Shown in pieces: positions 18,647-21,648 of a stretch of 63,092 nucleotides of DNA. The notes below the pieces were generated by a model. It had not been told where the DNA came from. It was given only the letters and a program-made list of their open reading frames with translations, and did not search any database. This stretch comes from Clostridiales bacterium (lineage in GTDB: Bacteria; Bacillota; Clostridia; Peptostreptococcales; NVVX01): positions 1 through 63,092 of the forward strand of contig JAJOKP010000043.1 of NCBI GenBank assembly GCA_021129775.1, read 5' to 3'. Position 1 is the first letter of the stretch. Every line of letters starts with the position of its first letter. The translations under genes were made by a program, and so were the position numbers.

Positions 18647-19498
18647 CTACTCGGTGCTCGGTCTTTCTAAAGTCATTTTGCCTATTGTACTAGACCTAAA
18701 CTCATCTAGCAAAATATTCGCGGTTCTCAAATAATCTGGTTCCCCACCTTTGACTATAAAGCCTCTATTTTTAGCTATTTCATTTAACACATCAAGTGGG
18801 CTACTCATTTTTCCAACTAAGTTATATCTGCTAGCTAAGTTTGATTTATATCCAAGTAGTAAATTCTCAATCAAATATAAAGCTAAGGTTTCAGTATCGA
18901 GCAATTCATCTTTAACTGCTCCAGTAAATGCAAGTTTCTTGCCGACTTCTGGATCTTCAAACTTAGGCCACAGGATTCCTGGAGTGTCCAGTAACTCAAT
19001 ATTGCCTTTTAGTCTTATCCACTGCTTTCCTTTTGTAACTCCGGGTTTGTCACCAGTCTTAGCACTTTTTCTCTTTACAAGTTTATTTATAATTGAGGAT
19101 TTACCTACATTAGGAATACCTACTACCATAACTCTAACAGCTCTTGCTCTTCTTCCTTTTTTAATAAGGGCATCCATTTTTTCTTTAACCTTCATTTCTG
19201 CTGCTTTCATAACATCATGAAGCCCTTTTCCACCTACTGAGTTAACAGGAATTGCAATTATTCCTTTTTTCTTAAAGTATTCTACCCATAACCCAGTAGC
19301 CCACGTGTCAGCTAAATCAGCCTTGTTTAAAATTACTACTTTAGGCTTCCCACCAATCATTGAATCAATATCTGGGTTTTTACTACTCATTGGAATTCTT
19401 GCATCTAAAAGCTCAAATATTACATCAACTAATTTTAGCTGCTCTTTTACCAATTCCTTAGTTTTTTTCATATGCCCTGGGTACCAGTGTATATTCAT
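18647..19498 (-). CDS. rbgA: Ribosome biogenesis GTPase RbgA/YlqF
   Basis: WYPGHM, NKADL, GIPNVGKSS, DTPGILWP. Confidence 0.97.
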   Translation of the reverse strand: MNIHWYPGHMKKTKELVKEQLKLVDVIFELLDARIPMSSKNPDIDSMIGGKPKVVILNKADLADTWATGLWVEYFKKKGIIAIPVNSVGGKGLHDVMKAAEMKVKEKMDALIKKGRRARAVRVMVVGIPNVGKSSIINKLVKRKSAKTGDKPGVTKGKQWIRLKGNIELLDTPGILWPKFEDPEVGKKLAFTGAVKDELLDTETLALYLIENLLLGYKSNLASRYNLVGKMSSPLDVLNEIAKNRGFIVKGGEPDYLRTANILLDEFRSSTIGKMTLERPSTE

Positions 19499-19515
19499 AT
19501 TATCAGCCTTTCTTG

Positions 19516-19590
19516 GTCAGACAAGGGGACAGGGACTAGTCTGGTTTCCAAGACAATGCGACCAGACAAGTCCCTGTCCCCTTGTCTGAC
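19516..19590. repeat. REPIN family A copy 3
   Basis: GTCAGACAAGGGGACAGGGACTAGTCTGG...CCAGACAAGTCCCTGTCCCCTTGTCTGAC. Confidence 0.9.
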
Positions 19591-19595
19591 TTTGT

Positions 19596-19624
19596 AAAAA
19601 AAGGCGAGGAATGACCTCGCCTTT
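19596..19624 (-). terminator. Intrinsic terminator after rplS
   Basis: AAAGGCGAGG-loop-CCTCGCCTTT followed by T run on minus strand. Confidence 0.8.
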
Positions 19625-19632
19625 AGTGATTG

Positions 19633-19983
19633 TTACTTATCTTTTCTCTCTTTAATCTTAAAGGCAGCTTTACCAATTCTGTCTCTTAAGTAAAATAATC
19701 TAGCCCTTCTAACTCTACCTTTTTTAACAACTTCAACTTTTTCGATCTTAGGTGAGTGTAGTGGGAAAGTTCTTTCAACTCCAACACCTGAAGAAATTTT
19801 TCTTACTGTAAAAGTTTCAGCTATGCTTCCACCTTGCTTTTTAATTACGATACCCTCGTACACCTGTACTCTTTCTCTAGTACCCTCTTTAATTTTAACG
19901 TGCACTCTTACAGTGTCTCCAGTAACAAATTTATCAACTTTGTCTTTTAATTGCTCTTTTTCAATTGATCTAATTATATCCAT
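19633..19983 (-). CDS. rplS: 50S ribosomal protein L19
   Basis: [39 protein letters not shown]. Confidence 0.99.
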
Positions 19984-20003
19984 AATTACCCTCCTTCCTT
20001 CCT

Positions 20004-20035
20004 AGACGTTCATATTATCAAACAGAGGACCGCCC
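20004..20035 (-). ncRNA. L19 leader (ribosomal protein autoregulatory RNA)
   Basis: GGGCGGTCCTCTG...ATGAACGTCT stem-loop directly upstream of rplS RBS. Confidence 0.7.
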
Positions 20036-20061
20036 ATTATAACTCTATTATTGTAACATAA

Positions 20062-20227
20062 CTGAAACTCCCCATAGCCGAAGCAAGGGGGTTCTTAGGT
20101 ACTTGCAAACTTCCAAATATACTCGAAAGCATATAAGACTAATCTGTTTCCCTAAGACTTTCACTATCAAAGATACCGATGCATCCATTAACGATAGTTT
20201 AACGCCCATTTCAAGACGTTGATATTA
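20062..20227 (-). ncRNA. Putative TnpB omegaRNA (reRNA) scaffold; guide would be the flank from 20061 downward
   Basis: Stems AACGTC/GGCGTT, CTATC/GATAG, TCTTAGG/CCTAAGA, ATATGCT-TTCG-AGTATAT, RE hairpin; internal TGAAA able to pair with terminal TTTCA; preceded by promoter. Confidence 0.6.
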
Positions 20228-20233
20228 ATTTAT

Positions 20234-20262
20234 ATCATAACGCATATTGCTATATAATACAA
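20234..20262 (-). promoter_or_regulatory. Element-internal SigA promoter
   Basis: TTGTAT-N17-TATGAT pointing through the scaffold into rplS. Confidence 0.6.
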
Positions 20263-20392
20263 GTGTTTTAGCGTTTATTTTGAGCATATTTAAAACCGTG
20301 GCTTATATCCCTATAGCTGAAGCAAGGGGCTTTACGCCACTTGTGGTAAATTACAATAGCAATGTTAGATGTTAATTTTTTTTCCATGGCTA

Positions 20393-21148
20393 CTACACTA
20401 AATCTGGTCTTCTATCTTTTGTTATCTGTAAAGACTTTTTTTTGCGCCAATCTTCTATATTTTTATGATGTCCAGATAATAAAACATCTGGAACTTTTAT
20501 ACCTCTAAATTCTTGTGGTCTGGTATATTGAGGATATTCCAACAAATTATTTGAGTGAGACTCCTCTATTATGGAGTCTTCATTAGATACAACGCCTGGA
20601 ATTAATCTTGTAATCGCGTCTATAACTACCATGGCTGGCAGTTCCCCGCCAGTTAACACATAGTCCCCAATTGAAATTTCATCAGTTACAAGGGTGTCAA
20701 TAACTCTTTGGTCAACTCCCTCGTAATGTCCACAGATAAATATCAAAGAGCTTTCTTTAGACAATTCTTTAGCCATCTCTTGATTAAAAACTTTGCCCTT
20801 AGGTGTCATATATATTGTTCTAATTTTATTGGTTTTTTTATGTTCACTCGTAATCTTTTCTTTAAATTCATCGTTTTCGTCCTTCTTGCTTTTTTCTTTG
20901 TTCTTCATATTGTTTAACGAACTCAAAGCATACTCATGGGCATCAAATAATGGTTGTGGTGTCATCACCATGCCTGCCCCACCACCAAATGGGTAGTCGT
21001 CAACTTTTTTATGCTTATTCGAAGCAAAGTCTCTTATTTGAATACAATCAATATCTATTTTTGCATCTTCAATCGCTCTTTTAATTATACTCTCACTAAG
21101 CATCCCTACAAACATTTGAGGAAACAACGTTAGTATTTTCACATCCAT
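20393..21148 (-). CDS. trmD: tRNA (guanine37-N1)-methyltransferase
   Basis: [45 protein letters not shown]. Confidence 0.98.
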
Positions 21149-21648
21149 TCTATCATTCCTTCAATTGGGTTTACGATAATTTTCTTTTCTTCTAAATTAA
21201 TTTCTATAATAAATTCCTTTACAGAAGGAATTAAAGTTTCTCGTTTTTTATCATCTTTAATAGCATAAACTTCATTTGAGCCCGACTGTATTATGCTCTC
21301 TACCTTGCCTACATATATGCTGTCAACAGTATATACACTAAGCCCAATTATATCAGTTATATAGTGAGTATCTTTAGGCAGTTTTCTTCTTTGTTTATCT
21401 TCAATTATTAAATAGCTATCTTTAAACTTTACAACTTGGTTAATATCGTCATAGTTCTCTAGTTGTAGAATAACAATGTTAGGTTTATATTTTATGTTGG
21501 TTATTGTTACTTTTTCATTAGTGCCTTCAACGAATACATAATCAAGTTCTTCAAACCTCTCAATATAATCAGTAAGAGGATAGACTTTAACCGCACCTTT
21601 TAGTCCGTGCGTACCAACGATTTGCCCTATTCTTAATTTATTTGACAT
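21139..21648 (-). CDS. rimM: Ribosome maturation factor RimM
   Basis: [16 protein letters not shown]; start re-assigned to ATG 21648 (RBS AGCAGGTG); the longer ORF is a repeat artefact. Confidence 0.95.

What the first reader, a model, noticed from the sequence alone, without database searches (positions are those of the whole stretch)
20062..20345. Protein-free IS200/IS605 mini-element that looks like a self-contained omegaRNA expression cassette
Seen: 284 bp with no ORF, bounded by two near-identical hairpins (CCCCTTGCTTC[A/G]GCTAT[A/G]GGG), an internal TTGTAT-N17-TATGAT promoter, then ~165 nt of nested stems (AACGTC/GGCGTT; CTATC/GATAG; TCTTAGG/CCTAAGA; a UUCG-capped ATATGCT/AGTATAT helix; TGAAA that could pair with terminal TTTCA) ending at the right end. 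Known: TnpB omegaRNA/reRNA is encoded at the IS200/IS605 right end and takes its guide from flanking DNA. Inference: the element lost tnpA/tnpB but kept a promoter placed right at the scaffold start, so it is a mobile guide-RNA gene that could program a TnpB (or nuclease-dead TldR) in trans, with each new insertion creating a new guide.
Basis: partly seen in the sequence, partly recalled or inferred. Interest (0 to 1): 0.85.

Follow-up and report, generated by a model that had tools for sequence, protein, structure and literature searches.

The report
Gene-less mini-transposon keeping guide RNA
This 284-base stretch is a stripped-down jumping gene that has lost both of its protein genes but kept its promoter and a complete guide-RNA gene, a kind of element already described in other bacteria.

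Summary
Window 20062-20345 (minus strand) is a 284-bp element inserted 3' of TTAC between trmD and rplS. Two sister genomes show the empty site, and there is no target duplication. It is a deletion derivative (PATE type) of an IS200/IS605 tnpA-tnpB element; a full copy lies elsewhere in the same genome (contig C37). The deletion runs from the tnpA start codon to the tnpB stop codon. This joins the left end, which carries the tnpA promoter, to the 160-nt right end.

That right end is the omegaRNA of a divergent TnpB clade that lacks zinc-finger cysteines. It follows tnpB in dozens of Bacillota loci. On a model-fitted alignment, 42 of 49 base pairs show compensatory changes.

The same promoter-to-omegaRNA fusion occurs in two other genomes. 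However, the only cognate tnpB in this 87%-complete assembly is a pseudogene. No RNA data cover the element, and its promoter matches consensus weakly (8 of 12).

PATEs encoding omegaRNAs that TnpB must use in trans were noted by Meers et al. (2023 preprint). This is therefore a new member of a known kind.

The parts
20346..20349 (-). TTAC target / presumed TAM, flanking DNA just 5' of the left end
   Evidence: All three copies in this genome are preceded by TTAC. The empty sites in G001 and G002 end in T(T/C)AC at the junction. TTAC, then 9-24 nt, then AAAG plus hairpin is found in 22 of 31 tnpA-bearing relatives.
20062..20345 (-). Whole 284-bp non-autonomous IS200/IS605 element (PATE type)
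   Evidence: Empty-site comparison. Both ends match the full copy at G000:C37: right end 98% and left end 84% identical.
20309..20345 (-). Left-end recognition part: 16 nt ending in AAAG (20333-20330), then an imperfect hairpin (20329-20309)
   Evidence: Direct repeat of the right-end hairpin. The same layout is seen in relatives. The role as a TnpA binding site and DNA guide is inferred from IS608, which I recalled and did not test.
20234..20262 (-). Promoter-like site TTGTAT-N17-TATGAT; predicted transcript start near 20227
   Evidence: Read from the sequence. It was not listed by the scan, at 8 of 12. It aligns with TTGCAT-N17-CATAAT in the C37 copy and with TTGAAT-N17-TAGAAT plus ribosome-binding site and tnpA remnant in G001. 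In 12 of 31 relatives a TTGNNN-N16-18-TANNNT site ends 6 nt before the tnpA ATG.
20222..20227 (-). Deletion joint: TAATAT, a remnant of the tnpB stop codon region
   Evidence: Alignment with the C37 copy. The left end stops at the position of the tnpA ATG. The right part resumes at TAA-TAC, the tnpB stop.
20062..20221 (-). omegaRNA-type scaffold, 160 nt. Helices: P1 20220-20214/20207-20201; P2 20198-20192/20169-20163; P2a 20186-20181/20176-20171; P3 20157-20151/20099-20093; P4 20146-20141/20111-20106; P4b 20138-20136/20114-20112; P5 20134-20128/20123-20117
   Evidence: The only hit of model R1 in the window: 150.6 bits, E 1.3e-35. Fold, helix coordinates. Covariation.
20062..20094 (-). Right-end recognition part: GAAC, an imperfect hairpin (20091-20070), then AGTTTCAG ending in the TCAG cleavage site
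   Evidence: Helix 10 covaries in 7 of 8 pairs. The last three letters, CAG, are invariant or nearly so: 68-70 of 71 distinct rows at each position. The role in TnpA cleavage is inferred from IS608, which I recalled.
20042..20061 (-). Flanking DNA that would form the guide part of the RNA (about 16-20 nt; its length is inferred)
   Evidence: Its position directly 3' of the right end. No terminator-like site lies between it and rplS on this strand. The guide function is inferred from published TnpB biology.
20050..20055 (-). TACAAT, the -10 of a putative rplS promoter split by the insertion; its -35, TTGCTA, is at 20362-20357
   Evidence: The empty sites in G001 and G002 read TTGCTA-N17-TACAAT/TATAAT. 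In the window the element sits 6 nt upstream of the -10. The promoter function itself was not tested.

Best explanation
Window 20062-20345, read on the minus strand, is a non-autonomous IS200/IS605 element of the PATE type.

Origin. It derives from a tnpA-tnpB element of an IS608-like family, which targets TTAC, has imperfect hairpins near both ends and makes no target duplication. A deletion removed both reading frames, from the tnpA start codon to the tnpB stop codon.

What is left:
- 118 nt of left end, holding the hairpin and the promoter of the leaderless tnpA mRNA;
- a 6-nt remnant at the joint;
- the complete 160-nt right end.

The right end is the omegaRNA scaffold of a divergent TnpB clade (about 480-500 aa, no zinc-finger cysteines). 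In this clade the scaffold lies wholly downstream of the tnpB stop codon.

Shown: identity, boundaries, ancestry, the conserved RNA structure, and the recurrence of this architecture in other genomes.

Inferred:
- The intact TnpA of the C37 copy can move the element.
- The former tnpA promoter starts an RNA near 20227 that runs through the scaffold into the flank. That flank begins TTATGTTACAAT.
- Such an RNA, loaded on a cognate TnpB, would cut the empty site (TTAC followed by that flank) and so restore the element after excision.

In this genome the only cognate tnpB is a pseudogene, so the guide RNA gene is most likely an orphan at present.
For: - Copies in the same genome: a full copy at G000:C37 matches the right end at 98% and the left end at 84%. 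It holds an intact Y1 transposase (Pfam Y1_Tnp, 3.4e-42) and a broken tnpB.
- The empty site in G001 and G002 gives exact boundaries, insertion 3' of TTAC and no duplication.
- The protein family is found in 161 relatives in species-representative genomes. It matches NCBIfam guided_TnpB over the full length at E 5.5e-25, though 88.4 bits is below the 100-bit cut-off. D238, E346 and D441 are invariant in 32 homologues.
- 53 of 80 loci carry a tnpA-like match (E <= 1e-5; some partial), mostly just upstream of tnpB.
- 69 of 75 3' flanks contain the module within about 25 nt of the stop codon.
- RNAalifold on a plain MAFFT alignment of 61 modules predicts 25 pairs, 19 of them with compensatory changes.
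- On the model-fitted alignment (71 distinct rows) 95.3% of cells pair, against 36-46% when partners are slid. 42 of 49 pairs change on both sides. The score is 0.528 against 0.03-0.05, and 0 of 500 shuffles reach it.
- The window has a single hit, at 150.6 bits.
- The same fusion of left-end promoter to module, without tnpB, is seen at G001:C15 and at G139:C400 with TTGACT-N17-TATAAT. Of 20 module hits examined, 6 have no tnpB within 600 nt or more upstream, 6 have one, and 8 are cut by contig ends.
Against: - There is no evidence of transcription. No run held half of the sampled words. The contigs that did lay on the region came from other copies, one of them continuing into a tnpB 3' end.
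- The promoter matches consensus weakly, at 8 of 12. It was not listed by the scan, which itself finds such sites at the chance rate in this A+T-rich DNA.
- No intact cognate TnpB is present in the assembly. The assembly is only 86.76% complete and IS copies often break contigs. One unrelated IS607-type tnpB is cut by a contig end.
- The element is single-copy here, so its mobility is not shown.
- The covariation is measured on an alignment fitted to the structure, which favours it.
Confidence: 0.85

Rival explanations
1. In this organism the element is an active, self-contained guide-RNA gene: its own promoter makes an omegaRNA that a TnpB or TldR encoded elsewhere uses in trans.
For: - The promoter-like site ends 12 nt before the scaffold and is homologous to the tnpA promoter of relatives.
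- The same fusion occurs in G001 and G139. Both also hold cognate tnpB genes: intact in G001, and long matches partly cut by contig ends in G139.
- The right end is far better conserved than the left end relative to the C37 copy, 98% against 84%.
- All helices are intact.
Against: - The only cognate tnpB found is a pseudogene. It lacks about residues 26-225 and has a frame break.
- Pfam and NCBIfam searches of the genome find no other member of this clade.
- There are no RNA data.
- The 98% identity could simply reflect a recent origin.
Confidence: 0.2
2. The element matters mainly in cis. It landed in the spacer of the rplS promoter, and it now feeds transcription into rplS from its own promoter or passes operon read-through. 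It persists for that reason, and the RNA scaffold is a passenger.
For: - The empty sites read TTGCTA-N17-TACAAT/TATAAT just upstream of rplS. The insertion lies 6 nt upstream of the -10.
- The element has the same orientation as trmD and rplS.
- No terminator-like site lies between the element and rplS on that strand.
- The window keeps TGT before TACAAT, an extended -10 form.
Against: - The rplS promoter is only a consensus match and was not tested.
- trmD-rplS co-transcription could make it dispensable.
- The G001 mini-element sits at another kind of site, between rpsR and its terminator.
- Sharing the orientation of highly expressed genes is expected from the known strand bias of this transposon family (recalled).
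Confidence: 0.12
3. The conserved helices are single-stranded DNA structures needed for transposition and do not form an RNA.
For: The terminal hairpin (helix 10) is of the kind that Y1 transposases bind as DNA (recalled). It covaries like the other helices.
Against: - In related elements 40-60 bp per end suffice for excision (IS607-type, passage in 10.1101/2023.11.20.567912), whereas the module here is 160 nt.
- The left end has only the one hairpin.
- Many pairs are kept through G-U, which pairs well in RNA and poorly in DNA.
- The module always lies on the tnpB sense strand, directly after the gene.
- TranC-like relatives keep the scaffold without the terminal hairpin, next to a repeat-spacer array.
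Confidence: 0.03

Closest known systems
Palindrome-associated transposable elements (PATEs) of IS200/IS605, as noted in Geobacillus stearothermophilus by Meers et al. 2023 (preprint PMC10055086, passages read) and in Clostridioides difficile IStrons (10.1101/2023.11.20.567912, legend passage)
   Same: There is no protein gene. Left and right ends are shared with full-length copies in the same genome. The right end encodes an omegaRNA that a TnpB from another copy would have to use in trans.
   Different: - It belongs to another TnpB clade and another RNA scaffold.
- The deletion here removes exactly the two reading frames, so the tnpA promoter abuts the scaffold.
- It is single-copy in this assembly, and no intact TnpB partner was found.
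- Whether the published PATEs have the same promoter fusion I could not see: figures and supplements are not held.
IS608 of Helicobacter pylori, the type IS200/IS605 element (details recalled, no paper read here)
   Same: It inserts 3' of TTAC. It has imperfect hairpins near both ends in direct orientation and makes no target duplication. AAAG lies directly 5' of the left hairpin. The gene order is tnpA then tnpB.
   Different: The right end finishes in TCAG with GAAC 5' of the hairpin; IS608 has TCAA and GAAT as I recall. The TnpB is about 490 aa without zinc-finger cysteines. The copy here is a mini-element with no genes.
TnpB omegaRNA / reRNA (ISDra2 type; general description in passages of PMC10055086)
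   Same: It is encoded on the tnpB strand, ends at the right transposon boundary, would take its guide from the flank, and has a multi-stem scaffold.
   Different: The scaffold starts about 10-25 nt after the stop codon and does not overlap the gene. No Rfam 15 family matches it at E up to 10. No pseudoknot could be supported.
TranC, the transposon-CRISPR intermediates (Jin et al., Cell 2025; seen only as cited and summarised in the review PMC13565253)
   Same: The guide scaffold is expressed as its own unit, apart from the nuclease gene. Two members of this same protein clade (L089 and L098) have a promoter, the scaffold and a repeat-spacer array upstream of the gene.
   Different: The window element has a single flank-derived guide, no array and no adjacent nuclease gene. 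It still has both transposon ends.
TldR, the nuclease-dead TnpB-like repressors (mentioned in PMC13565253)
   Same: Both would use an omegaRNA-like guide.
   Different: No TldR-like gene was found. The only cognate gene is broken by a deletion and a frame break and has not been remodelled. Intact relatives keep the D-E-D catalytic residues.

Membership tests
IS200/IS605 family, non-autonomous (PATE-type) element | Imperfect palindromes near both ends, in direct orientation rather than as inverted terminal repeats | tested here: met
   20069-20093 and 20308-20332, 88% identical direct repeat. Each folds as an imperfect hairpin (for the right end; read from the sequence for the left end).
IS200/IS605 family, non-autonomous (PATE-type) element | Insertion 3' of a specific short target, without target-site duplication | tested here: met
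   Empty sites in G001 and G002. TTAC precedes all three copies in G000 and 22 of 31 relatives.
IS200/IS605 family, non-autonomous (PATE-type) element | Ends shared with an autonomous element that encodes a Y1 (HUH) transposase | tested here: met
   The C37 copy has Y1_Tnp at 3.4e-42 and matching ends.
IS200/IS605 family, non-autonomous (PATE-type) element | No protein-coding gene between the ends | tested here: met
   Only mechanical ORFs of 31-53 aa overlap it. The interior is left end plus RNA module.
IS200/IS605 family, non-autonomous (PATE-type) element | Mobilised in trans by TnpA | not testable with these tools
   It is single-copy in this assembly. An excision assay is needed.
TnpB omegaRNA (reRNA) | Encoded on the tnpB strand at the right end, stopping at the transposon boundary | tested here: met
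   All 78 model hits in 83 sources lie on the tnpB strand of their locus. Most lie directly after the stop codon and end in TCAG.
TnpB omegaRNA (reRNA) | Conserved secondary structure supported by covariation | tested here: met
   19 of 25 pairs on the MAFFT alignment and 42 of 49 pairs on the model-fitted alignment, with slid and shuffled controls far lower.
TnpB omegaRNA (reRNA) | Transcribed, and bound by the cognate TnpB to guide DNA cleavage next to the TAM | not testable with these tools
   No usable RNA data and no biochemical tool.
TnpB omegaRNA (reRNA) | A cognate TnpB is present in the same cell | tested here: not met
   Only a pseudogene was found in the 86.76%-complete assembly. 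This does not prove absence.
Any curated Rfam 15 family | Match to a covariance model | tested here: not met
   Within 20062-20345 there is only a chance-level SAM-II hit, 17.8 bits, E 4.4.
TnpB (for the associated protein clade) | RuvC-like D-E-D residues and full-length similarity to TnpB models | tested here: met
   NF040570 matches over positions 1-388 of 389 at E 5.5e-25, though below the curated cut-off. D238, E346 and D441 are invariant in 32 sequences.
TnpB (for the associated protein clade) | Zinc-ribbon (CxxC...CxxC) between RuvC-II and RuvC-III | tested here: not met
   There are no cysteine pairs in that stretch of the alignments. PF07282 finds nothing in the genome.

The most novel reading that the evidence does not exclude
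Promoter-fused, protein-free omegaRNA elements may be a selected form rather than accidents of decay. In this TnpB clade, deletions at different joints in three genomes each placed the tnpA promoter directly in front of the scaffold. The result is a stand-alone guide-RNA gene that lets a mini-element borrow TnpB-mediated restoration from full-length copies. That would be the first step in separating the guide gene from the nuclease gene. Two members of the same clade (L089 and L098) have taken the separation further, with a promoter, the scaffold and a repeat-spacer array.
Probability: 0.15. Interest if true: 0.7.

Novelty: new member of a known kind. Interest (0 to 1): 0.38.

Why it matters
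It is a clean, fully delimited example of a guide-RNA gene that has outlived its nuclease gene. The empty site, the parent copy and the exact deletion joint are all in hand.

It also defines an omegaRNA family that Rfam 15 does not hold. The family belongs to a widespread TnpB clade in Bacillota that lacks the zinc finger and sits far from any solved structure.

If the promoter-to-scaffold fusion proves recurrent and active, it bears on how guide RNAs became independent genes on the way from transposons to CRISPR. For this genome alone the element is probably an orphan, and ordinary.

Tried and rejected
- **Rfam 15**, run at a permissive E-value over 19000-21500, found nothing real inside the element.
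- **TGAAA/TTTCA pseudoknot:** no covariation; the result equals the shuffles. It is neither shown nor excluded.
- **Expression data.** The look-up of sequencing runs returned 24 runs, none with half of the sampled words; the best share was 0.11. I laid four runs:
  - The X1 contig covers 20061-20220 and then continues into a tnpB 3' end, so it comes from a full-length relative elsewhere.
  - X2 gives a 164-nt record with adapter sequence at both ends and a different flank.
  - X23 and X24 laid nothing.
  - None of this bears on the window's element.
- **Promoter homology.** I asked whether the promoter in front of the TranC-like scaffolds is homologous to the left-end tnpA promoter. The best local score for L089 was 37, against a shuffled maximum of 34. 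For L098 it was 29, within the null. The result is inconclusive and I dropped it.
- **Solved structures.** A 3-sequence profile gave no hit at E <= 0.01. A 32-sequence profile gave only weak hits: 9j09 'Transposase' at E 6e-4 and LaTranC at E 0.18.
- **Pfam on the TnpB clade** gave only sub-threshold matches.
- **Paper supplements** are closed. The lists of omegaRNA models, PATEs and TranC loci in the cited papers could hold this clade, and I could not check them.
- **Not run:** The search for homologous proteins, structure prediction and complex prediction. The question did not turn on them.

Full report
**Setting.** The region lies between two minus-strand genes. One is ribosomal protein L19 (19633-19983; Pfam Ribosomal_L19, 2.5e-48). 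The other is TrmD (20393-21148; tRNA_m1G_MT, 3.7e-65). Everything below is read on the minus strand, so the element has the same orientation as these genes.

**The observation.**
- The hexamers TTGTAT (20262-20257) and TATGAT (20239-20234), 17 nt apart, are in the sequence.
- The named stems appear in the minimum-energy fold of 20221-20062: -44.2 kcal/mol, z = -2.36, with 4 of 200 shuffles folding as well (helix coordinates).
- Only mechanical ORFs of 31-53 aa overlap the element.

**Boundaries.** The L19 gene of two sister genomes (G001 and G002, same genus) led to their trmD-rplS spacers. Aligned with the window, these spacers lack exactly 20062-20345. The junction reads T(T/C)AC followed by TTATGAT. 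The window has TTAC, then the element, then TTATGTT. The element is therefore 284 bp, inserted 3' of TTAC with no duplication.

**Parent copy.**
- A search of the window's own genome (2.22 Mb, 161 contigs, 86.76% complete) found both halves of the element on contig C37, about 1.4 kb apart. The right half (20062-20221) is 98% identical and the left half (20228-20349) is 84% identical.
- Between the two halves lie an intact Y1 transposase gene (Pfam Y1_Tnp, 3.4e-42) and a decayed tnpB. Only an N-terminal 25 codons are readable, roughly residues 26-225 of intact relatives are missing, and there is a frame break later on.
- A third site, C11:817-858, also matched. By my reading it is TTAC followed by a 45-nt micro-element: the left-end leader, one hairpin and the right-end tail.
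- All three copies are preceded by TTAC.

**The deletion joint.**
- In the C37 copy, TTGCAT-N17-CATAAT is followed after 6 nt by an ATG that opens MKYKSN.... This corresponds to the start of TnpA in relatives.
- In the window the left end runs to exactly that point (ATAAAT, 20233-20228). It then continues with TAATAT (20227-20222), which matches the TAA-TAC at the tnpB stop codon of C37, and then with the right end.
- The deletion therefore took out both reading frames and little else.

**The protein family.**
- Intact relatives of the broken tnpB are 476-500 aa.
- They match NCBIfam guided_TnpB over its whole length at E 5.5e-25, but 88.4 bits is below the 100-bit cut-off. Pfam matches are only sub-threshold.
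- They have no cysteine pairs where the zinc ribbon of TnpB lies.
- D238, E346 and D441 are invariant in 32 homologues.
- A scan of species-representative genomes found 161 relatives; the best 80 were kept. They span Clostridia, Erysipelotrichia and Bacilli.
- 53 of the 80 loci carry a tnpA-like match (E <= 1e-5; some partial), in most cases just upstream of tnpB. This is therefore an IS605-type family.
- No solved structure is detectable by sequence beyond weak hits: 9j09 at E 6e-4 and LaTranC at E 0.18.

**The right end is a conserved structured RNA gene.**
- Flanks: I took the 300 nt after the stop codon from the 75 of 80 loci that had at least 150 nt there. In 69 of 75, a module ending in TCAG begins about 10-25 nt after the stop. 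The six misses were L089, L098, L105, L108, L128 and L129.
- Rows dropped before alignment: seven identical copies (L075-078, L080, L102, L103) and four truncated or much longer ones (L123, L125, L126, L130).
- Alignment: I then aligned 58 modules with those of the window, C37 and the G001 mini-element, 61 rows in all. RNAalifold predicted 25 pairs, 19 of them with compensatory changes.
- Model: MAFFT misplaced gaps in the inner helices. I therefore built a covariance model from 20 consistently aligned sequences with a hand-set structure of 49 pairs.
- Search: run over the window and 82 loci, the model gave 78 hits, all on the tnpB strand. The only hit in the window is 20062-20221, at 150.6 bits, E 1.3e-35.
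- Covariation on the model-fitted alignment (71 distinct rows):

| Measure | This structure | Controls |
|---|---|---|
| Cells paired | 95.3% | 36-46% with 3' partners slid by 1-3 columns |
| Pairs changed on both sides | 42 of 49 | 16-22 when slid |
| Covariation score | 0.528 | 0.03-0.05 when slid; 0 of 500 shuffles reach it |

- Caveat: this alignment is fitted to the structure, which favours it. The plain alignment points the same way.
- Rfam 15 has no family for this RNA.

**The left end and the promoter.**
- In 22 of 31 tnpA-bearing relatives the left end reads TTAC, then 9-24 nt, then AAAG, then a hairpin. This is the IS608 layout as I recall it.
- In 19 of 31 a TTGNNN-N16-18-TANNNT site lies in the last 170 nt before tnpA. 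In 12 of those the -10 ends 6 nt before the ATG, which is the signature of a leaderless mRNA.
- G001 full copies have TTGAAT-N17-TAGAAT, then a ribosome-binding site and a truncated tnpA.
- In the window it is a weak match, 8 of 12. The scan did not list it, and the scan finds such sites at the chance rate here.

**Recurrence.**
- Model R1 finds 2 modules in G000 (the mini-element and C37). It finds 5 in G001: three full copies, one mini-element and one piece at a contig end. It finds none in G002 and one each in G011 and G300.
- In a sample of 151 genomes of the order, 9 have a match; G139 has 11.
- Of 20 module hits examined, 6 have tnpB directly upstream. Another 6 have none within 600 nt or more: L131 (the window), L137, L155, L159, L161 and L162. 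The remaining 8 are cut by contig ends.
- The G001 mini-element lies between rpsR (Ribosomal_S18, 8.1e-25) and a terminator that begins 19 nt after its right end. It has TTGTAT-N17-TAAAAT about 17 nt before the scaffold.
- The G139:C400 mini-element has TTAC, the left hairpin, TTGACT-N17-TATAAT, a ribosome-binding site, ATG plus four bases, and then the scaffold.
- The joints differ, so at least the G139 deletion is independent of the one in the window.

**What speaks against a working guide gene here.**
- The assembly has no intact cognate tnpB.
- The only other TnpB-like gene is the first 124 codons of an IS607-type gene, next to a serine recombinase (Resolvase 1.5e-18, MerR 9e-12) and cut by a contig end. 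It belongs to another clade, and the protein search with the cognate TnpB does not find it.
- Public RNA runs gave nothing usable.
- The element is single-copy.

**Comparison with what is known.**
- Meers et al. (preprint PMC10055086; passages of the Results, Discussion and Methods read) report PATE-like elements without genes in G. stearothermophilus.
- A PATE with IStron ends is shown for C. difficile (10.1101/2023.11.20.567912, legend passage).
- The term PATE goes back to work on Haloquadratum (PMC3119063, seen in the search listing only).
- What is particular here is the exact removal of both reading frames, which puts the tnpA promoter on the scaffold. Also particular are an omegaRNA lying wholly after the stop codon, a TnpB clade without zinc-finger cysteines, and the insertion site inside a putative promoter.
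- I did not search the literature specifically for promoter-fused PATEs.

**Site effect.**
- The empty sites read TTGCTA-N17-TACAAT (G001) and TTGCTA-N17-TATAAT (G002) just upstream of rplS.
- The element sits 6 nt upstream of that -10 and pushes the -35 284 bp away.
- The window keeps TGT before TACAAT.
- No terminator-like site separates the element from rplS on this strand.
- Transcripts from the operon or from the element's promoter would therefore read into rplS, and the guide part of any omegaRNA would be the rplS promoter region itself. This is inference; nothing was tested.

**Verdict.** The finding is real, precisely delimited and well explained. It is a new member of a known kind, and in this genome its guide RNA gene is probably an orphan.

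Paper supplements were closed.

Noticed in passing
L089 2114-2474 (and L098 1365-1746): Two Ruminococcus MAG loci of the same TnpB clade have no RNA module after the gene. Upstream of it they have a consensus promoter (TTGACA-N18-TATAAT in L089) and the scaffold without its terminal hairpin (R1 hits of 104.6 and 103.8 bits). Then come 3 or 4 direct repeats at a 61-nt period, about 28-nt repeats ending like the transposon right end, separated by unique spacers. This looks like a TranC-type transposon-CRISPR intermediate. I could not check whether these loci are among the published ones.
   Followed up: partly
G000:C11:817-865 (L006 817-865): TTAC is followed by a 45-nt micro-element: the 16-nt left-end leader, one hairpin and the 8-nt right-end tail. 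It looks as if the two hairpin repeats recombined and removed everything between them. It lies inside a mechanical 80-aa ORF.
   Followed up: partly
window 20050-20055 and 20357-20362 (minus strand): The element split a putative rplS promoter between its -35 and -10. The promoter reads TTGCTA-N17-TACAAT/TATAAT in the empty sites of G001 and G002.
   Followed up: partly
window 19511-19594: A long near-perfect palindrome of about 80 nt and 53% G+C lies between the L19 gene and the next gene downstream. It was picked up only as chance-level microRNA-like hits in the Rfam scan (31.7 bits against a gathering score of 95.5). It may be a terminator or a repeat element.
   Followed up: no
G000:C43:1-967 (L144): An IS607-type element: a serine recombinase (MerR plus Resolvase domains, 205 aa) followed by the first 124 codons of a typical TnpB, cut off by the contig end.
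   Followed up: partly
L015 1400-1772 (G001:C15): A second mini-element of the same architecture sits between rpsR and its terminator in the sister species. The terminator stem begins 19 nt after the right end, so a transcript would end just past a guide-length flank.
   Followed up: partly
Left ends of L054, L056, L062, L097, L106 and others: The -35 of the tnpA promoter is bracketed by an inverted repeat (GTGTAT ... ATACAC) in many relatives. This could be an operator.
   Followed up: no
window 20228-20349 versus 20062-20221: The left end is 84% identical to the C37 copy and the right end 98%. The C11 fragment shares the window's left-end type (98%). At least two left-end lineages therefore exist in this genome, and the mini-element is not a direct derivative of the C37 copy.
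   Followed up: no
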